Positions 3,918-56,540 of a DNA stretch of 64,000 nt are shown piece after piece (the first letter of the stretch is position 1; each line of letters begins with the position of its first letter). The stretch is from IMG/VR virus record IMGVR_UViG_3300025030_000039, positions 188,878 through 252,877 of that record, one strand, 5' to 3'. The position numbers and the translations under genes were made by a program. The stretch comes from a virus. The notes under the pieces were generated by a model. The model saw only the letters and a program-made list of their open reading frames with translations, made no database searches and was not told the origin of the DNA.

Positions 3918-4199
3918 ATGAAAACATATTTTTTACAAAACATTACAAAAAAATGGAATAAAATCTCAAATAAATATGGTAATGATCCTTTATTTGTTAC
4001 TGCTATATTTTTTCCATTAGTTATCGTAGCATCTATATCATTTATGATAAGTATATTTTATAGTCATAGATTTTTCTGTGACTTTTTTGGCTGGCATAGA
4101 AGTAAAGATATTCTTATTAATAATTCTACTAAAACAGGTCACTGTGCTAGATGTGGAATGCAAAATTTAACAAAAGATTCAAACAATAATTGGTATTAA
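3918..4199 (+). CDS. small membrane protein (one hydrophobic helix, Cys/His-rich tail)
   Basis: Track ORF with a FFPLVIVASISFMISIF hydrophobic segment. Confidence 0.4.
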   Translation: MKTYFLQNITKKWNKISNKYGNDPLFVTAIFFPLVIVASISFMISIFYSHRFFCDFFGWHRSKDILINNSTKTGHCARCGMQNLTKDSNNNWY

Positions 4200-4471
4200 A
4201 CATGGAAGATTATCATTTAAAAAATAAAAAAATACTTACTATTGCTAAAAATATTTTTGGCGATATAGTTAAAAATGCTTATATAGCTTATTTTGATAAA
4301 GATTTAATTTCAGGATTGGTTTCATCTTATAAAAAATTAAAAGATGATAGTATATTATTACCTTACGATAGTGATGATATTGTATTAGAATTTAGTAATG
4401 GAAATTTAGTTAAATTTTCTAATTCTGAATGGGCTAGTATATCTAAAATTGAAACATTAAATATAATTTAA
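4190..4471 (+). CDS. hypothetical protein (93 aa)
   Basis: Track ORF. Confidence 0.4.
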   Translation: MVLNMEDYHLKNKKILTIAKNIFGDIVKNAYIAYFDKDLISGLVSSYKKLKDDSILLPYDSDDIVLEFSNGNLVKFSNSEWASISKIETLNII

Positions 4472-6976: not shown

Positions 6977-7404
6977 AATATGTTCTTTAATTTTTCATTT
7001 CGTATACAGTTTATATTATCACATTGATGTTTTCCTGGTCTAACTAAAGTTAATTTTTCTCCACAATCTCCACATGCATAAATTAATTCTAGTTCTGAAT
7101 CAGCATTAATTATCGTAATTTCTTTTAATAAGTTTTTATTTCTTTGTAAATCTTCTTCTAATCTTTTAATATATGTAGTCATCCTATCAATTATATAATT
7201 AATTAGTAAATTATCATTTATTAAATTTTTATCAGATGTTGGATATGCAAAATGAAATTTATTACTATATTTATTGATATAGTAATAAATTTCATTTGAG
7301 CATTTTATAATTTTAGTTCCACCGTCTCTTATAGTATCGATAAAGGTTACACTAAAAAATTTACCACCTTTTATTACATATTTTTTAATTAATTCTTCTT
7401 CCAT
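6973..7404 (-). CDS. hypothetical protein with C-terminal Zn-ribbon (CGDCG...CDNINC)
   Basis: Track ORF. Confidence 0.45.
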   Translation of the reverse strand: MEEELIKKYVIKGGKFFSVTFIDTIRDGGTKIIKCSNEIYYYINKYSNKFHFAYPTSDKNLINDNLLINYIIDRMTTYIKRLEEDLQRNKNLLKEITIINADSELELIYACGDCGEKLTLVRPGKHQCDNINCIRNEKLKNIL

Positions 7405-12237: not shown

Positions 12238-12310
12238 CGGTTTTGCCAATTGGCTTTTGTGCTTTTGTGCTTTGACTGAGAGTATGTGCGTGGCAAAACC
12301 GAACACATAC
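12238..12310 (-). other. GC-richer structured element with nested inverted repeats
   Basis: CGGTTTTGCCA (12238-12248) is the perfect reverse complement of TGGCAAAACCG (12291-12301). GTATGTG (12282-12288) and CACATAC (12304-12310) enclose the second arm. A CTTTTGTG tandem lies between them. The region is non-coding. Confidence 0.35.
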
Positions 12311-12340
12311 AACCATTCGTTATAAGTAATAAAATAAAAA

Positions 12341-12505
12341 CTACTTACTACTATTAATATCCTTAATCAAAATTTGAATTTCTTCATTTTTATTTTCTAA
12401 CTCTTTTTCAAATGCTTTTTGAAACTCAAACTTTTGTTCTTCACTTAACTCATTCAAATTTTGAATGTTAGTTTGTCTAATTTCTGCTTTAATTTTCTTT
12501 TCCAT
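12341..12505 (-). CDS. small hypothetical protein (54 aa, charged and helical), below the track cutoff
   Basis: Hand translation gives MEKKIKAEIRQTNIQNLNELSEEQKFEFQKAFEKELENKNEEIQILIKDINSSK with a TAG stop. It lies about 20 nt downstream of a minus-strand promoter-like motif. Confidence 0.35.
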   Translation of the reverse strand: MEKKIKAEIRQTNIQNLNELSEEQKFEFQKAFEKELENKNEEIQILIKDINSSK

Positions 12506-12522
12506 AATTTTACTGTTTTTAT

Positions 12523-12549
12523 TTTACATACTTATAACAACAAATATAA
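12523..12549 (-). promoter_or_regulatory. promoter-like motif on the minus strand, early-block variant (TTTGTTGTTATAAGTATGTAAAAT)
   Basis: The reverse complement is TTTGTTGTTATAAGTATGTAAAAT, about 20 nt before the ATG at 12505. The same motif recurs at 12900-12928, 15146-15173 and 18110-18135, and is related to the plus-strand TTTGTTATTATATTTA motif. Confidence 0.4.
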
Positions 12550-12589
12550 AACATTGCTGATGTAGTTTCTATTTATATTATACGTTTAA

Positions 12590-12655
12590 TTTCAAGTTTT
12601 GTTTCATTTATTTACATTCATGTTGCAACTTTTTATATTTGTAATCGTTATAGAT
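12590..12655 (-). repeat. ~65-bp element, inverted copy of 21940-22006
   Basis: The reverse complement of 12596-12643 matches 21951-21998 at 44 of 48 positions (ACAAATATAAAAAGTTGCAACATGAATGTAAATAAATGAAACAAAACT). Similarity extends a few bases on both sides. Confidence 0.55.
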
Positions 12656-12928: not shown

Positions 12929-12998
12929 AAATAAATCTTACTTTGTCTATTTTTTAATGAAAAGATTTACTTCTCATATTTGCAACCGTTAGGCATAA

Positions 12999-13430: not shown

Positions 13431-13563
13431 TTTATTTTTATTTTAAGTTTAACAATCTGATTAATAAAGCACGAAACCATAACATTTGCTATATGTAACA
13501 CGGCTGAAAAGTCCGTACTATTTTGAGAATGTCTGCTATGCCGTGCTACACATATCATTTTCG

Positions 13564-13755
13564 TTATGAACAATGCTTAACGTCTGCCAACGCTATGTCA
13601 TGTCCACATTTTTTACATTTACCAACCATAATTAAGTGGTCGAAAGCATTGTTCATAACACCAAATAAATGAAATTTCTCTATTTCATCTATTGTCGGTA
13701 GTGCTTTTATTGTTACTTCTATACCACTTGGCAATTTTACTTTCATATTTTTCAT
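13564..13755 (-). CDS. hypothetical protein (63 aa; CKKCGH Zn-ribbon-like)
   Basis: Track ORF. Confidence 0.4.
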   Translation of the reverse strand: MKNMKVKLPSGIEVTIKALPTIDEIEKFHLFGVMNNAFDHLIMVGKCKKCGHDIALADVKHCS

Positions 13756-14680: not shown

Positions 14681-14935
14681 CTATAATAGGTTATGTTTCA
14701 TACACCTAACCGTTAGCGGTAATTTAATAACAGTATTTTGAGCATCTTCATAGCTTTCAAATATCTTATTACATCTTGGACAAGAACAACAACCGTCAAC
14801 AACGGGTATAGCAAATAATTTTACTAAGTCAAATCGTAATTTTCCACATATTTCTCCTGTCATTTTTATATAATCAAGATTATCGTTATCAATTTTTACA
14901 TCACTTAATAATAAGTGTACTTCTTGTTCTGTCAT
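14681..14935 (-). CDS. hypothetical protein with CCSCPRC Zn-ribbon (84 aa)
   Basis: Track ORF. Its 3' end overlaps a CTAACGGTTAGG operator-like motif. Confidence 0.4.
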   Translation of the reverse strand: MTEQEVHLLLSDVKIDNDNLDYIKMTGEICGKLRFDLVKLFAIPVVDGCCSCPRCNKIFESYEDAQNTVIKLPLTVRCMKHNLL

Positions 14936-16036: not shown

Positions 16037-16343
16037 ATTTTATATTTTTTTACAAAGGTAAAACAAATTAATGACAAAACCTAACAAATGATAAACAACA
16101 TTAAAACATTCGTTTATCTGCAACCGTTATAAAACAGTTTGCTTAAAAAAGTTTTCCACATTTTATACATCTAACCAAATAAGCACCAACCTCAAACTTT
16201 TCAAATTCGTGTTTGCAAACAGATTTTATAACAGGTATATCCAATTGCTTTTTTTGTTTTCTAAATAAACATTTTCACAATTTTTTCATCTTGTATTTCA
16301 ATTTAATTTTTACTAATTTTACGCAACTATATACCTGCAGCCT

Positions 16344-21939: not shown

Positions 21940-22006
21940 GGCTAACGGTTGCAAATATAAAACGTTGCAACATGAATGTAATTAAATGAAACAAAACTTG
22001 AAAAAA
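21940..22006 (+). repeat. ~65-bp element, inverted copy of 12590-12655; contains CTAACGGTTGC and GTTGCAAC
   Basis: GGCTAACGGTTGCAAATATAAAACGTTGCAACATGAATGTAATTAAATGAAACAAAACTTGAAA. It lies about 90 nt upstream of the RlmN-like gene. Confidence 0.55.
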
Positions 22007-53762: not shown

Positions 53763-53960
53763 ATGTTTCCTACTAATTTTAAAAACAAAAAGATATCAAT
53801 AATATTTAAAATATTATTTTTTATTTCTATATTTGTAACTATAAGTTATAGAATCATAATGCCTGAATTTATAATAATATCAAATGATATCTATTTATGG
53901 TTATTTTGTTTAACTTCAATAACATTATTTTTTATAACATACTCATTTAAAACAAATTAA
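53763..53960 (+). CDS. small membrane protein (two TM segments)
   Basis: Track ORF, hydrophobic. Confidence 0.35.
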   Translation: MFPTNFKNKKISIIFKILFFISIFVTISYRIIMPEFIIISNDIYLWLFCLTSITLFFITYSFKTN

Positions 53961-54007: not shown

Positions 54008-54223
54008 ATGAAAAGAACATTTATTTATTTAGTAGCTATTTTAATGATAGCAGGTTGCTGCAACCCAAATGAAGCAAATTCACCATGTACTCCTGGTGAT
54101 ACAATACAAGTTTCTAATAGTGAATCTGAAAACTTAGATGAAACTATTAAAGAAGGTGAATCTGAAAATATCGATTCAGTAAGTAATGATGGCTATGCAG
54201 CCGATGAAAAATATTCAGAATGA
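54008..54223 (+). CDS. acidic lipoprotein (MKRTFIYLVAILMIAGCC)
   Basis: Signal peptide plus lipobox Cys, then an acidic S/E-rich sequence. Confidence 0.4.
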   Translation: MKRTFIYLVAILMIAGCCNPNEANSPCTPGDTIQVSNSESENLDETIKEGESENIDSVSNDGYAADEKYSE

Positions 54224-54435
54224 AAAATATTTGGACAATATTAATAATAGGAGCATATATTATATATGTTACATCAGCATTTTCATCTACTGCATCATTA
54301 CCAGTATCTTCACCTGTTAAAATTGTATCAAGTATTGATTTTACAGTTTATAAGATAATAGATGGTTCAAATGTAGTCTATATTACTTGTTCAACTTCAG
54401 ATAATATTAATGTATCAATGGCTGTTGTTAAATAA
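54220..54435 (+). CDS. secreted or membrane small protein (71 aa)
   Basis: Track ORF with an N-terminal hydrophobic segment. Confidence 0.35.
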   Translation: MKNIWTILIIGAYIIYVTSAFSSTASLPVSSPVKIVSSIDFTVYKIIDGSNVVYITCSTSDNINVSMAVVK

Positions 54436-54443
54436 TTACATTA

Positions 54444-54476
54444 AAAAGAATCATAAATTTATGGTTCTTTTTTTGT
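54444..54476 (+). terminator. rho-independent terminator (AAAGAATCATAAA/TTTATGGTTCTTT then TTTTG)
   Basis: 13-bp stem with one G-U pair, followed by a U-run, 9 nt after the stop at 54435. Confidence 0.55.
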
Positions 54477-54674
54477 CTGTAATTTTTTATAATCAAAATT
54501 ATTTTGATAACAGGATATTTTTATAATAGGGATATTAAAAATTTAATCCCTTTGTATATTCCGGTAATACTTGGTATACGCGATATTCAGGATAATAATA
54601 CCTTATATCCAATAATTACATTAACCCTAGTTAAATATTGTATAAAAATACTTTAGATAAAAATTTTTATTTTT

Positions 54675-54695
54675 AAACCTTTGTTATTAAATTTA
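54675..54695 (+). promoter_or_regulatory. class B promoter-like motif (AAACCTTTGTTATTAAATTTA) with no protein-coding gene downstream
   Basis: Same family as 47347 and 48009. The next ~430 nt lack any ORF longer than 25 codons. Confidence 0.4.
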
Positions 54696-54699
54696 TAAA

Positions 54700-55032
54700 A
54701 TTAAAAATTATAAAATAGTTCATTGAAATGAAACATTTGTGATCCTAACGGTTGGTATTTTAATATAATAAGTATTAAAATATGATACAATATGAAAATA
54801 TTGGACAGTGCGAAACTGAATGAGTTAGGCAATATAAACATCAAATTGATTTTGCTGTGGATGAATATTGAAGCTGTTGACTGTCATGAAAAGATAAATG
54901 ATAAAAATTGCTTACACACCTAATTGTAATATTGGGTATGATTTTTAATTTTTAATAATTATCGCTAAAGTGTAAATGTTCCATATACTATGTATTAAGG
55001 TCGTTTAGCGATAGTTATTTTTATTAATTTTG
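54700..55032 (+). ncRNA. candidate non-coding RNA (~330 nt) between a promoter-like motif and a hairpin/T-run
   Basis: An ORF-free interval bounded upstream by the class B motif. Downstream is a 10-bp perfect inverted repeat, TATCGCTAAA (54960-54969) and TTTAGCGATA (55004-55013), followed by TTATTTTTATTAATTTT. It contains a CCTAACGGTTGG operator-like motif at 54744-54755. Confidence 0.3.
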
Positions 55033-55127
55033 AAATTTTATTATGAAAAATTTGAAGAATTATCAGAAGCTGAGAAGGAATTAAGAAGTTTAATATATGC
55101 ACTTTATTTGAAATAAAATACAAAAAT

Positions 55128-55502
55128 ATGGAAAAATTAAAAGATCTGGAAAAATTAAAAGATTTTATAACAGAAGATGATTTGAATAAATTTAAAGAAG
55201 GTGTAATTGAAACAGCAAGAGAAAATCTTAGAAGAGATAAACAATTATTACCTATTATTCATTTTTTATTCATTAAAGATAATAAATTAGCAGTTGCATT
55301 AATGCCAGTAAATGATTTTATGATTAATGATCAAACAAAAGATATAATGGTTCACTTAGTTAAAAAAACTATTGATGAATTTAATGTATTTGCATTAATT
55401 ATGATACAAGAAGCATGGCTCAGTTCTATTAATATTAATGAAAAAGATACATATCAAGGAAGGCCTTCAGAAGATCCAAATCGTAATTTTCAAATATGCT
55501 AA
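55128..55502 (+). CDS. hypothetical protein (124 aa)
   Basis: Track ORF. Confidence 0.4.
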   Translation: MEKLKDLEKLKDFITEDDLNKFKEGVIETARENLRRDKQLLPIIHFLFIKDNKLAVALMPVNDFMINDQTKDIMVHLVKKTIDEFNVFALIMIQEAWLSSININEKDTYQGRPSEDPNRNFQIC

Positions 55503-55551
55503 AACAAAATCCTGGATTAAATTAAATACTTTAAAATTTATTTTTATCTTT

Positions 55552-55573
55552 GGCCTTTTGTTATTATATTTAT
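55552..55573 (+). promoter_or_regulatory. class B promoter-like motif (GGCCTTTTGTTATTATATTTAT)
   Basis: It sits about 28 nt before the ATG at 55602. Confidence 0.45.
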
Positions 55574-55601
55574 TTAATTAAATTTAAAATTAATTCTAAA
55601 C

Positions 55602-56540
55602 ATGCCAAAGATATTAATGAATTTGGAACAAGCTTTAGATGTATTTAAACATATAATAGCAATAACTGGAGATCAAAATTTTCATTTAGCAGGATCAGCA
55701 AGAAGAGGTAAAAAAGAAAATTTAAAAGATTTAGATATAATCTATTTAGGAGATGAAATTCCTGATATAGAAAATGCTATTTATGTTGCAGATGGACCAT
55801 CATTAAAAAGAATTAAATTAAGATATGAATTTTCAAAAGGAATATTTGATTATGTTTCTATGGATATTCATATTGCGAATAAATTAAATTTCGGTTCTAC
55901 TCTTTTATATTTTACAGGTTCTCGGGAATTTAATATTAATATGAGAAAAAATGCTATGTCTAAAGGATGGAAACTCAATAGACATGGATTGTTTAATCAA
56001 AATAATGAATTAATAGCGGCTGAAAATGAAATAGATATTTTTTCAGCATTAGAAATTCCTTTTGTTAATCCTGTAGATAGAACAATATTTAAATCTGAAC
56101 AAGATGAAGAAAATCAAAAATTAATAAATACTATACGTCAATTAGCAATATTTCATGCTATTGAAGGTGATCATTATCGATCATCAGCATATTTTAAAGC
56201 ATCTTCATCATTACAAGAAATTGGTAATATCAAAAAATCAAAAGAAAATAACGAACTTATTTGTATAGATAATGTTGGAAATTCAATAGCAGCTAAAATC
56301 ATCGAATTTTTTGATACGGGTAAAATACATAAATTAGAAAAATTAAAAGAAACATATCCAGTTGATGTAGAAGGATTATTAAGTTTAGAAGGAGTTGGAT
56401 ACAAAAGCTTATTTAAATTTTATAAATTATTAGGAATAGAAACACTTGATGATTTAAAGAAAGCATGTAAAGAAAATAAAATAGCAAATCTTCAAGGATT
56501 TGGATTATCATCTCAAGAAAAAATATTAAATCAACTATGA
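55602..56540 (+). CDS. DNA polymerase X-like protein with apparently permuted domain order (palm and thumb first, then 8-kDa/HhH fingers)
   Basis: The N-terminal half has the Pol-beta motifs HLAGSARRGKKENLKDLDII (GS.RRG...D.D), LLYFTGSREFNINMRKNAMSKGWKLNRHGLF and ENEIDIFSALEIPFVNP. The C-terminal half holds IDNVGNSIAAKIIEFFDTGKIHKLEKL and LEGVGYKSLFKFYKLLGIETLDDL, helix-hairpin-helix motifs like the Pol-beta 8-kDa and fingers domains. Confidence 0.65.
   Translation: MPKILMNLEQALDVFKHIIAITGDQNFHLAGSARRGKKENLKDLDIIYLGDEIPDIENAIYVADGPSLKRIKLRYEFSKGIFDYVSMDIHIANKLNFGSTLLYFTGSREFNINMRKNAMSKGWKLNRHGLFNQNNELIAAENEIDIFSALEIPFVNPVDRTIFKSEQDEENQKLINTIRQLAIFHAIEGDHYRSSAYFKASSSLQEIGNIKKSKENNELICIDNVGNSIAAKIIEFFDTGKIHKLEKLKETYPVDVEGLLSLEGVGYKSLFKFYKLLGIETLDDLKKACKENKIANLQGFGLSSQEKILNQL

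What the first reader, a model, noticed from the sequence alone, without database searches (positions are those of the whole stretch)
54675..55032. ORF-free ~330-nt interval framed by a promoter-like motif and a hairpin/T-run: a candidate phage small RNA
After the class B motif at 54675 there is no ORF longer than about 25 codons for more than 400 nt, which is exceptional in this tightly packed sequence. The interval ends with a 10-bp perfect inverted repeat (54960-54969 / 55004-55013) followed by a T-rich run, and it begins with the CTAACGGTTGG motif. The true terminator of the upstream gene lies further upstream at 54444-54476, so this region appears to be an independent transcription unit.
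Basis: seen in the sequence. Interest (0 to 1): 0.55.

Follow-up and report, generated by a model that had tools for sequence, protein, structure and literature searches.

The report
Promoter-to-hairpin noncoding RNA unit in phage
A 370-base stretch of a 462-kb uncultured phage has the same promoter, Nus-factor (boxA-like) leader box and long-stem hairpin as the phage's tmRNA gene but no believable protein-coding frame, so it is a reasonable but unproven candidate for an untranslated phage RNA of unknown function.

Summary
A repeated promoter-like motif sits at 54661-54698 (67 copies in the 462-kb genome against about 1 in a shuffle). A 16-bp hairpin plus T-run sits at 54954-55032. No + strand frame over 54440-55070 has the phage's coding signature. 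Two details are wrong. The interval does hold a 43-codon ATG ORF, but its GC3 is 43% against 6-14% in neighbouring genes and it has no homologs. CTAACGGTTGG lies at 54745, about 45 nt inside the predicted transcript, and is not a promoter.

New here: an 11-mer GTTCATTGAAA (54718-54728) matches boxA, the NusB/NusE site that protects untranslated RNAs from Rho. Its three other exact copies in the genome lie 5-11 nt upstream of tRNA-Asn, tmRNA and a tRNA-His cluster. Promoter plus boxA in tandem occurs only at tRNA-Asn, tmRNA and here. The tmRNA gene ends in the same unusual hairpin type. A 96-nt four-way-junction domain folds in the top ~1% of windows.

Best reading: a boxA-led untranslated RNA of about 290-330 nt. 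It may instead be a long leader of gene 55128. There are no homologs, no Rfam match and no expression data, so function is unknown.

The parts
54443..54478 (+). Terminator-like hairpin plus T-run that closes the upstream gene block (ORF 54220-54435). It marks the 5' boundary of the locus.
   Evidence: Arms 54443-54457 / 54458-54472, 93% complementary, followed by a T-run. The 96-nt window at 54420 folds with z -4.9.
54661..54698 (+). Class B promoter-like motif (genome consensus atATTTTTATaTTtaAAaCTTTtTTATTATATTTAcAT). Its 3' part TAAATTTA (54688-54695) resembles the Bacteroidetes -7 box TAnnTTTG. The inferred transcription start is about 54700-54704.
   Evidence: Scores 35 bits. There are 67 genome sites against about 1 in a shuffle. 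The median distance to the next ATG is 27 nt. The motif also precedes tRNA-Asn, tmRNA and an intron-bearing tRNA. It is conserved in related 35%-GC phage contigs. The transcription start is an inference.
54718..54728 (+). boxA-like element GTTCATTGAAA in the predicted 5' leader. It would be a NusB/NusE-type site.
   Evidence: It is one of only 4 exact GTTCWTTGAAA copies in 462 kb. The other three lie 5-11 nt upstream of mature tRNA-Asn, tmRNA and tRNA-His. The same 11-mer lies 3-8 nt upstream of tmRNA in 10 bacterial genomes. It matches published boxA sequences GYTCTTTAANA and AGTTCTTTGACA.
54745..54830 (+). Predicted four-way-junction RNA domain. The closing helix is CCUAAC (54745-54750) with GUUAGG (54825-54830). 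It carries three hairpins, one with a GAAA tetraloop.
   Evidence: The 96-nt fold has MFE -21.6 kcal/mol, identical to the centroid and 26% of the ensemble. z is -4.4 with 0 of 200 shuffles as good. Only 1.3% of 386 background 96-nt windows reach z <= -4.0, and 0.8% reach that MFE. This is a prediction only; no covariation is available.
54792..54923 (+). 43-codon ATG ORF (MKILDSAKLNELGNINIKLILLWMNIEAVDCHEKINDKNCLHT). Most likely not translated.
   Evidence: GC3 is 43% against 6-14% in 17 neighbouring called genes. The codon log-odds score is -0.34 (genome-wide model) or -0.16 (local model), against +0.2 to +0.6 for 16 of those 17 genes. There is no homolog among 1.84 billion representative proteins. 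Its AUG lies in a predicted stem. A public gene caller does call it.
54699..54950 (+). Predicted body of the primary transcript. A 13-bp helix joins its 5' end (54699-54711) and 3' end (54938-54950).
   Evidence: MFE -52.1 kcal/mol. z is -4.5 or -3.6. The minus strand gives z -2.4 to -2.9. Background 252-nt windows have mean z -0.58, sd 1.38 and 5th percentile -3.0. The inverted repeats are I3 and I22.
54954..55032 (+). Long-stem, large-loop hairpin (arms 54954-54969 / 55004-55019, 34 nt between them) followed by the T-rich run 55020-55032. It is the presumed intrinsic terminator and may be leaky.
   Evidence: -17.1 kcal/mol, z -3.3. The T-tail has 9 of 12 T on the + strand but only 2 of 12 on the - strand. 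The tmRNA gene of the same genome ends in a 16-bp-stem, 32-nt-loop hairpin of -17.2 kcal/mol followed by a T-run. The consensus terminator scan does not call it because its loop exceeds 8 nt.
55128..55502 (+). Next gene downstream. It encodes 173 aa in LR756500.1 and is frameshifted to 124 aa in this window by a 124-bp deletion. It would be the cargo if the unit is really a 5' leader.
   Evidence: No class B promoter lies between 55032 and 55128. The next one is at 55538-55575, ahead of the PolX-like gene 55602.

Best explanation
The interval is a separate transcription unit for an untranslated RNA. It is built like the phage's own stable-RNA genes.

Proposed sequence of events. A class B phage promoter (54661-54698) starts transcription near 54700. 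About 20 nt into the transcript lies a boxA-like box (54718-54728). By analogy with rRNA operons and CRISPR arrays, this box recruits host NusB/NusE and the other Nus factors to RNA polymerase, so that Rho does not abort an RNA no ribosome is translating. The body (to about 54950) folds into a defined four-way-junction domain (54745-54830) plus further hairpins. The 16-bp hairpin with its U-run (54954-55032) ends most transcripts, giving an RNA of about 330 nt. If the 5' end is trimmed just after boxA, as for tRNA-Asn, tmRNA and tRNA-His, the RNA would be about 290 nt.

Shown: the motifs, their genome-wide associations, the lack of coding signal and the predicted folds. Inferred: promoter activity and start site, Nus binding, termination, processing, and any function of the RNA. 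That function is unknown. Its co-architecture with the tRNA and tmRNA units hints at a stable RNA rather than an antisense regulator.
For: 1. Promoter. The motif has 67 genome copies against about 1 in a shuffle, sits a median 27 nt upstream of ATGs, also drives tRNA-Asn, tmRNA and an intron-bearing tRNA, and is conserved in related phage contigs.

2. boxA. The exact 11-mer GTTCWTTGAAA occurs 4 times in 462 kb. Three copies lie 5-11 nt upstream of mature tRNA or tmRNA 5' ends. Under a relaxed boxA pattern, 7 of 9 intergenic sites lie in the stable-RNA cluster in sense orientation and 1 is this site. Class B followed by boxA within 60 nt occurs at 3 of 67 promoters: tRNA-Asn, tmRNA and this one. 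My own estimate of the chance expectation is about 0.006. The same box lies 3-8 nt upstream of tmRNA in 10 bacterial genomes, with the real -7 promoter box at variable distance upstream, so it is a leader element. It matches published boxA sequences. boxA protects untranslated RNAs from Rho.

3. No coding. No + frame over 54440-55070 scores like a gene. The 43-aa ORF has GC3 of 43% against 6-14% in neighbours, a codon score typical of spurious ORFs, and no homolog. No stop-codon recoding rescues a frame.

4. Structure. The 252-nt body has z -3.6 to -4.5 and folds better on the + strand. The 96-nt domain has z -4.2 to -4.4, in the top ~1% of windows.

5. 3' end. The hairpin and + strand-only T-run have the same build and energy as the tmRNA terminator.
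Against: - There is no expression data.
- No homolog exists anywhere searched, so conservation and covariation cannot be tested.
- Rfam gives no match even at E <= 10.
- About 1.4 exact copies of the 11-mer are expected by chance in the genome, so this copy alone could be chance. Only its position argues otherwise.
- The box carries A at position 5, where the classical consensus has T.
- boxA can be partly sequestered in a small predicted hairpin.
- The 3' hairpin has an AU-only base and a 34-nt loop, so termination may be weak.
- Gene 55128 has no class B promoter of its own.
- Other windows in this AT-rich genome fold equally well.
- No target complementarity was found in the phage genome.
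Confidence: 0.45

Rival explanations
1. The interval is a long, boxA-protected 5' leader or attenuator of the downstream gene 55128 (and perhaps later genes). Transcription from the class B promoter reads through a leaky or conditional hairpin. boxA keeps Rho off the ~430-nt untranslated leader, or, as at a lambda nut site, makes polymerase resistant to the terminator. The structured domain would then be a sensor or regulator-binding site.
For: No class B promoter lies between the hairpin and ATG 55128; the next is at 55538. The base of the hairpin is AU-only and its loop is 34 nt, which is atypical for an efficient intrinsic terminator. boxA elements are known in mRNA leaders such as suhB and in phage nut sites. 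The layout promoter, boxA, terminator, genes is the lambda early-operon layout (established knowledge).
Against: The other class B plus boxA units in this genome make stable RNAs, not mRNAs. The tmRNA gene, which must end, uses the same hairpin type. No boxB-like hairpin lies next to boxA, and I saw no upstream complement to the GC core of the 5' hairpin arm when reading the sequence. No known riboswitch or leader family matches. A one-mismatch copy of a second enriched upstream motif (TAATATATG, near 55089) could give 55128 its own promoter. A variant of the phage carries a frameshifting 124-bp deletion in 55128 while keeping the upstream unit identical.
Confidence: 0.25
2. The interval is an mRNA for the 43-aa protein (54792-54923), with its own promoter and terminator.
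For: An ATG-initiated ORF sits neatly between promoter and hairpin. A public gene caller annotates it. Like other genes here it lacks a Shine-Dalgarno sequence and has an A/T-rich upstream region.
Against: GC3 is 43% against 6-14% in 17 neighbouring genes and reaches the maximum (0.429; 99th percentile 0.415) seen in 43-codon windows of real genes. Only 0.3% of real-gene windows score as low on codon usage, whereas 26% of spurious ORFs score at least as high. No homolog exists in 1.84 billion representatives. By my own estimate, about 0.2-0.4 ORFs of this length are expected by chance in 690 nt of 24%-GC sequence. The 95-nt leader lies in the upper quartile for this promoter class. The AUG is buried in a predicted stem. 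boxA otherwise marks untranslated RNAs.
Confidence: 0.08
3. The interval is non-functional spacer or decayed DNA. An orphan or spare promoter copy, a chance 11-mer and a chance inverted repeat lie in a stretch left by gene loss or rearrangement, and any transcript is a by-product.
For: About 1.4 exact 11-mers and 3-6 long-stem, large-loop inverted repeats are expected by chance genome-wide. Several other 440-570-nt gaps exist. A 14-nt direct repeat (54431 / 54611) and a nearby 124-bp indel hint at local rearrangement. There is no conservation evidence.
Against: Five independent features coincide in the right order and on one strand: promoter, boxA 21 nt downstream, a top-1% structured domain, a hairpin, and a + strand-only T-run. 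The same combination recurs at the tmRNA gene. Local GC rises to 33% without a coding signature.
Confidence: 0.17

Closest known systems
boxA-led untranslated transcription units (rRNA operon leaders; CRISPR array leaders, Stringer et al. 2020, PMC7665894; consensus GYTCTTTAANA, Baniulyte et al. 2017, PMC5725501)
   Same: An 11-nt box of the boxA family sits in the transcribed leader just downstream of a promoter, ahead of an RNA that is not translated. Variants with G at position 8 are those reported for Bacteroidetes.
   Different: The RNA here is short (about 300 nt) and of unknown kind. The box has A at position 5. Neither Nus binding nor Rho sensitivity has been tested. The element is phage-borne and paired with a phage-specific promoter.
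The phage's own tmRNA and tRNA-Asn genes (LR756500.1 c94511-94921 and c87213-87285)
   Same: Both have the class B promoter followed within 6-21 nt by the exact boxA 11-mer. The tmRNA gene also ends in a 16-bp-stem, ~32-nt-loop hairpin plus T-run of the same energy.
   Different: The body is not a tRNA or tmRNA: ARAGORN and Rfam are negative. It also lacks the G-rich 5' end seen at the tRNA-Asn, tmRNA and tRNA-His 5' ends, which lie 5-11 nt after the box.
Lambda-type nut sites (boxA + boxB) controlling read-through of early terminators
   Same: The order is promoter, boxA, terminator, downstream genes. Host Nus factors are implied.
   Different: No boxB hairpin lies within about 10 nt of boxA. 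No N-like protein was identified. The 230-nt structured body has no counterpart in nut.
Phage-encoded small or noncoding RNAs found by transcriptomics in jumbo phages (e.g. phiKZ dRNA-seq and Grad-seq studies, PMC8244752 and PMC8545117; found, not read in detail)
   Same: A phage-encoded RNA without coding capacity in a very large phage genome.
   Different: Those were detected experimentally. This one is only predicted, shares no sequence with them, and is distinguished by the boxA leader.

Membership tests
boxA (NusB/NusE-binding antitermination element) | 11-12-nt RNA-sense sequence matching the boxA consensus (GYTCTTTAANA in gamma-proteobacteria; G(T/C)TCTTTGACA in Bacteroidetes) | tested here: met
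   GTTCATTGAAA matches 9 of 11 positions of GYTCTTTAANA, or 10 of 11 if the Bacteroidetes G at position 8 is allowed. The one further deviation is T5 to A. The identical variant precedes tmRNA in Flavobacteriales, Bacteroidales and Bacteroidetes genomes and precedes the phage tRNA-Asn.
boxA (NusB/NusE-binding antitermination element) | Lies in the transcribed leader, downstream of the promoter and upstream of an untranslated RNA | tested here: met
   The box starts 21 nt after the end of the class B motif. In bacteria the -7 promoter box lies 4-50 nt upstream of it. No coding signal follows. The transcription start itself is inferred.
boxA (NusB/NusE-binding antitermination element) | Binds NusB/NusE and confers resistance to Rho-dependent termination | not testable with these tools
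   This needs EMSA, ChIP or reporter assays in the unknown host.
Intrinsic (Rho-independent) terminator | Stable stem-loop immediately followed by a U-tract on the transcribed strand | tested here: met
   16-bp stem, -17.1 kcal/mol, z -3.3. 9 of 12 bases after it are T on the + strand, against 2 of 12 on the - strand.
Intrinsic (Rho-independent) terminator | Short loop (3-8 nt) and G+C-rich stem base next to the U-tract | tested here: not met
   The loop is 34 nt and the nine pairs nearest the U-tract are A-U or G-U. The consensus scan does not call it. The phage tmRNA terminator shares these departures.
Stand-alone bacterial or phage sRNA / stable ncRNA | Own promoter and own 3' end with no translated ORF in between | tested here: met
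   All by sequence inference only.
Stand-alone bacterial or phage sRNA / stable ncRNA | Detectable discrete transcript | not testable with these tools
   No transcriptome data are available.
Stand-alone bacterial or phage sRNA / stable ncRNA | Conserved sequence or structure with covariation, or membership of a curated RNA family | tested here: not met
   Rfam finds nothing at gathering thresholds, and nothing credible at E <= 10. No homologous locus was found in phage, IMG/VR, metagenome or protein-anchored searches. All six contigs carrying the locus are near-identical.
Small protein-coding gene (43 aa) | Codon usage and GC3 like the genome's genes; homologs; accessible start codon | tested here: not met
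   GC3 is 43% against 6-14%. The codon score is -0.34 or -0.16 against about +0.4. There is no homolog. The AUG lies in a predicted stem.
Lambda-type nut site | boxB hairpin a few nt downstream of boxA, and a cognate N-like antiterminator | tested here: not met
   The only hairpin at boxA is formed by boxA itself (UUCAU/AUGAA). The GAAA-tetraloop hairpin lies about 59 nt downstream. No Arg-rich N-like ORF lies nearby.
tRNA / tmRNA | Cloverleaf or tmRNA covariance-model match | tested here: not met
   ARAGORN finds 0 genes in the window. Rfam gives no tRNA or tmRNA hit here, while it finds 27 tRNAs and the tmRNA elsewhere in the genome.

The most novel reading that the evidence does not exclude
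Huge phages of this lineage, probably infecting Bacteroidota, place host-type boxA elements behind their own promoters to drive a set of stable RNAs. Besides tRNAs and tmRNA, this set would include at least one new structured RNA of about 300 nt (this locus) that belongs to no known family. Two further unnamed boxA-led RNAs may exist elsewhere in the genome. The new RNA would be a Nus-dependent, phage-specific stable RNA, co-regulated with the phage's translation-related RNAs.
Probability: 0.3. Interest if true: 0.6.

Novelty: new member of a known kind. Interest (0 to 1): 0.4.

Why it matters
If real, this would be one of few noncoding RNAs proposed for an uncultured huge phage. It would also be one where sequence alone gives a mechanistic handle: a host Nus-factor site coupled to a phage promoter.

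It offers a simple, testable rule for finding untranslated RNAs in such genomes, namely class B promoter plus boxA. It also suggests that these phages borrow the host's rRNA-type antitermination machinery for their own tRNA, tmRNA and unknown RNAs.

The promoter and boxA features also point to a Bacteroidota-like host for a phage whose host is unrecorded.

If it is only a leader or a spacer, the finding is ordinary.

Tried and rejected
- **Known RNA families.** Rfam on the whole window at gathering thresholds, and on 54300-55300 at E <= 10, gave nothing credible. The only hits were DapZ (17 bits) over the upstream terminator and mir-367 (15.8 bits) over the hairpin. ARAGORN found no tRNA or tmRNA.
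- **Recoded or frameshifted gene.** All six frames carry many TAA stops. Treating TAG or TGA as sense gives no long ORF. Genome-wide there are 0 in-frame TGAs with coding-like flanks and only 3 TAGs. A frame with coding-like GC3 (17%) carries five in-frame TGAs before its TAA and has a non-coding codon score of -0.07.
- **Comparative genomics.**
  - The window is a variant of LR756500.1, and all public copies are identical across the locus.
  - The downstream 173-aa protein and the 43-aa ORF have no homologs.
  - PolX-like relatives at 44% and 39% identity are not syntenic.
  - Sigma-factor relatives reach at most 40% identity and lack the promoter motif.
  - Related phages sharing the class B promoter were found in IMG/VR, but the pieces obtainable carry no homolog of this region.
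  - The single metagenome scan for the promoter plus boxA tandem returned 44 hits, none from a relative.
- **CTAACGGTTGG as a promoter.** Rejected. It has 5 sites genome-wide and belongs to a small family (TAACGGTTGCAAATAT) found near gene ends at 12-22 kb of the window.
- **GTTCWTTGAAA as a promoter.** Rejected in favour of a leader element, because in bacteria the -7 promoter box lies at variable distance upstream of it.
- **Antisense target search.** No match was better than E = 0.46 within the phage genome.
- **Sigma-70 consensus promoter scan.** Uninformative in this AT-rich DNA: 26 sites found against 22.9 expected.
- **Promoter for gene 55128.** K-mer searches gave only low-complexity matches plus one weak copy of a second enriched motif.
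Full report
**Source and context.**
The window is a variant of LR756500.1, an unannotated 462,018-bp 'uncultured phage' genome. Window position 1 corresponds to genome 388,074. The window is 100% identical to that record around the finding, apart from a 124-bp deletion at 55486/55487. The genome has 24% G+C. The standard genetic code fits it: treating TAG or TGA as sense barely lengthens ORFs. A genome-wide test found no in-frame TGA, and only three in-frame TAGs, flanked by coding-like sequence on both sides. The phage carries 26 tRNAs, including one with a CUA anticodon, and a tmRNA. All lie at 61-119 kb on the minus strand.

**Checking the observation.**
A short-word BLAST of the intergenic region against the window showed that 54661-54696 recurs many times.
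- Aligned copies give a 38-nt motif, atATTTTTATaTTtaAAaCTTTtTTATTATATTTAcAT.
- A weight matrix finds 67 sites in the genome against about 1 in a shuffle.
- These sites sit a median 27 nt (interquartile range 19-51) upstream of an ATG ORF on the same strand.
- The same motif, with an almost invariant core CTTTTTTATTATATTTACAC, precedes genes in related 35%-GC phage contigs from IMG/VR.
- It is therefore a promoter-like element of this phage lineage. Its 3' end (TAnnTTTA) resembles the Bacteroidetes -7 box (my knowledge; compare).
It folds at -17.1 kcal/mol. Nine of the next 12 bases are T on the + strand only.
- The upstream terminator (54443-54472 plus T-run) is also there.

Three details of the finding are wrong or overstated.
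- A 43-codon ATG ORF (54792-54923, + strand) and a 47-codon TTG ORF (54701-54844, - strand) lie inside the 'ORF-free' interval.
- Other gaps of 440-574 nt exist in the window.
- CTAACGGTTGG lies at 54745-54755, about 45 nt inside the predicted transcript. It has only five sites at one mismatch or fewer in the genome and belongs to a small repeat family near gene ends at 12-22 kb of the window. It is not a promoter.

**Is anything translated?**
- I trained a codon log-odds model on the phage's long ORFs. Real-gene 43-codon windows score +0.43 +/- 0.21. Spurious ORFs of 38-50 codons score -0.55 +/- 0.41.
- The 43-aa ORF scores -0.34. Only 0.3% of real windows score that low.
- With a model trained only on the local + strand block it scores -0.16. 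Sixteen of the seventeen neighbouring called genes score +0.20 to +0.61; the 65-aa gene at 53763 scores -0.03.
- Its GC3 is 43%, against 6-14% in those neighbours.
- No + strand frame anywhere in 54440-55070 reaches a gene-like score.
- The ORF product has no homolog among 1.84 billion representative proteins.
- By my own estimate, about 0.2-0.4 ATG ORFs of this length are expected by chance in 690 nt of this composition.
- The interval is therefore effectively non-coding, even though a public gene caller annotates the ORF.

**The new element: a boxA-like box.**
- Among class B promoters with no ORF close by, one precedes tRNA-Asn, one precedes the tmRNA and one precedes a tRNA with a long insertion. 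The promoter therefore also drives stable RNAs.
- The leaders of tRNA-Asn and tmRNA share with this locus the 11-mer GTTCWTTGAAA.
- That exact 11-mer occurs four times in 462 kb, against about 1.4 expected by my own estimate. Three copies lie 8, 5 and 11 nt upstream of mature tRNA-Asn, tmRNA and the tRNA-His cluster. The fourth is at window 54718-54728.
- A relaxed pattern gives nine intergenic sites against 2.9 expected. Seven are in the stable-RNA cluster in sense orientation, and one is this locus.
- A class B promoter followed within 60 nt by the exact box occurs at 3 of 67 promoters: tRNA-Asn, tmRNA and this locus. My own estimate of the chance expectation is about 0.006.
- Searches outside the genome found the same box 4 nt upstream of tmRNA in other phage contigs.
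- It also lies 3-8 nt upstream of tmRNA in ten bacterial genomes: three Flavobacteriales, one Bacteroidales, one Bacteroidetes, four Melainabacteria/Gastranaerophilales/Vampirovibrio, and one unclassified bacterium. In those genomes the Bacteroidetes -7 promoter box sits at variable distance further upstream. The box is therefore part of the transcribed leader.
- It matches boxA, the NusB/NusE site. The gamma-proteobacterial consensus is GYTCTTTAANA (PMC5725501). The Bacteroidetes boxA sequences reported upstream of CRISPR arrays are AGTTCTTTGACA and CGCTCTTTGACA (PMC7665894 supplementary file 4).
- That paper shows that boxA protects long untranslated transcripts from Rho.
- I found no paper that links boxA with tmRNA leaders.

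**Structure.**
- The predicted primary transcript body (54699-54950) folds at -52.1 kcal/mol with z -4.5, or -3.6 in my own run. The minus strand gives -2.4 to -2.9.
- Eighty background 252-nt windows have mean z -0.58, sd 1.38 and 5th percentile -3.0. The phage tmRNA scores -3.1 in the same test.
- A 13-bp helix joins the two ends of the body (54699-54711 with 54938-54950).
- The best-defined part is a 96-nt four-way junction at 54740-54835. Its MFE equals the centroid, it holds 26% of the ensemble, z is -4.4, and 0 of 200 shuffles fold as well.
- Only 1.3% of 386 background 96-nt windows reach z <= -4.0, and two of the five windows that do cover the neighbouring upstream terminator.
The AUG of the 43-aa ORF lies in the stem of the second hairpin.
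- These are single-sequence predictions with no covariation support.

**The 3' end.**
- The hairpin departs from textbook terminators. Its loop is 34 nt and its base is AU-only, so the consensus scan does not call it.
- The tmRNA gene, the other long class B plus boxA unit, ends in a 16-bp stem with a 32-nt loop, -17.2 kcal/mol, followed by a T-run.
- Hairpins of this build are about three-fold enriched in the genome: 15 against 3-6 in shuffles. This one has the strongest T-tail.

**What it most likely is.**
Five features occur in the right order and on one strand, and together they reproduce the architecture of the phage's tmRNA and tRNA-Asn units: promoter, boxA 21 nt downstream, non-coding structured body, long hairpin, and + strand U-run. 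I therefore favour a boxA-led untranslated RNA of about 290-330 nt (confidence 0.45).

The main rival (0.25) is that the same RNA is a long leader of gene 55128.
- That gene has no class B promoter of its own. The next one is at 55538, ahead of the PolX-like gene.
- The hairpin may be leaky.
- Against the leader model: the tmRNA analogy holds; no boxB or antiterminator pairing is evident; a one-mismatch copy of a second enriched upstream motif lies about 30 nt before ATG 55128; and one phage variant carries a frameshifting deletion in 55128 while the upstream unit is unchanged.

An mRNA for the 43-aa peptide (0.08) and a non-functional spacer (0.17) remain possible.

**Limits.**
- No close relative of this region exists in any collection I could search.
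- Rfam is negative.
- No complementarity to the phage genome suggests a target.
- Promoter activity, transcription start, Nus binding, termination efficiency and function are all inferences.

**Verdict.**
This is a plausible candidate noncoding RNA, better supported than when first flagged, with a mechanistic hook in boxA. It remains unverified and of unknown function. I class it as a new member of a known kind, with interest 0.4.

Noticed in passing
window 55486/55487 (gene 55128-55502): The window lacks 124 bp that are present in LR756500.1. This frameshifts a 173-aa gene to 124 aa. A JGI 429-kb contig carries the short form. A Logan contig (L083) ends exactly at the breakpoint, which suggests both alleles coexist in natural populations.
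   Followed up: partly
window 55602-56540: The PolX-like protein appears to have a permuted domain order. An N-terminal nucleotidyltransferase-like motif is followed by the thumb (residues 100-160), then HHH_8 (170-241) and HHH_5 (257-312). Only two full-length relatives were found (44% and 39% identity), one of them on a 348-kb phage-like contig.
   Followed up: partly
window 55538-55575: A further class B promoter copy (30.8 bits) lies 28 nt upstream of the PolX-like gene. In all there are 18 class B copies in the window.
   Followed up: yes
window 21943-22005 (+) and about 12590-12655 (-); also 12976-12992 (-), 14706-14716, 16120-16130 (-): A ~65-nt repeat (TAACGGTTGCAAATATAAAACGTTGCAACATGAATGTAATTAAATGAAACAAAACTTGAAA) occurs on both strands downstream of gene ends. 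Shorter TAACGGTTGC copies also occur. A perfect palindrome CTAACCGTTAG abuts a hairpin with 14-bp arms and a 45-nt loop. The function is unknown; it could be a regulator-binding site or part of another promoter class.
   Followed up: partly
window ~12300-12550 (+), ~13500-13750 (-), ~7100-7350 (both strands): These 252-nt windows fold far better than shuffles (z -5.8, -4.6, -4.0). The first two lie in ORF-poor stretches. A 96-nt window at 7230 reaches z -7.4.
   Followed up: no
window 55030-55116: A 28-codon TTG ORF (LKFYYEKFEELSEAEKELRSLIYALYLK) lies between the hairpin and gene 55128. Its codon score is gene-like (+0.40), unlike the 43-aa ORF.
   Followed up: no
window 54431-54444 and 54611-54624: An exact 14-nt direct repeat AATAATTACATTAA brackets the upstream terminator and a 150-nt, slightly G+C-richer stretch. 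It may be a rearrangement scar.
   Followed up: no
LR756500.1 (L091/L092): c94511-94921, c87213-87285, c118738-118821, c65559-65639; bacterial loci L221-L230: boxA-like boxes lie 5-28 nt upstream of phage tRNA and tmRNA genes. They also lie 3-8 nt upstream of tmRNA genes in Bacteroidota and Melainabacteria genomes. I found no paper describing boxA in tmRNA leaders.
   Followed up: partly
LR756500.1 about 83650-84110 (-), about 108100-108340 (-), 4104-4200 (+): Three further candidate unnamed RNAs lie outside the window. Two are G+C-richer stretches behind a class B promoter and/or a boxA-like box, and Rfam does not recognise them. The third is a ~100-nt promoter-to-terminator unit without an ORF.
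   Followed up: no
LR756500.1 c110652-110720; in-frame TAGs at 394896 (-), 318061 (-), 63334 (-): The phage encodes a tRNA with a CUA anticodon (amber suppressor). Three in-frame TAG codons have coding-like flanks on both sides, which hints at limited TAG read-through or recoding. A tRNA after promoter 110947 (-) carries a ~170-nt insertion.
   Followed up: partly
genome-wide; window ~55089: A second motif, (T)GATATATAA, is enriched 8-16-fold upstream of 158 genes that lack a class B promoter. It may be another promoter class.
   Followed up: partly
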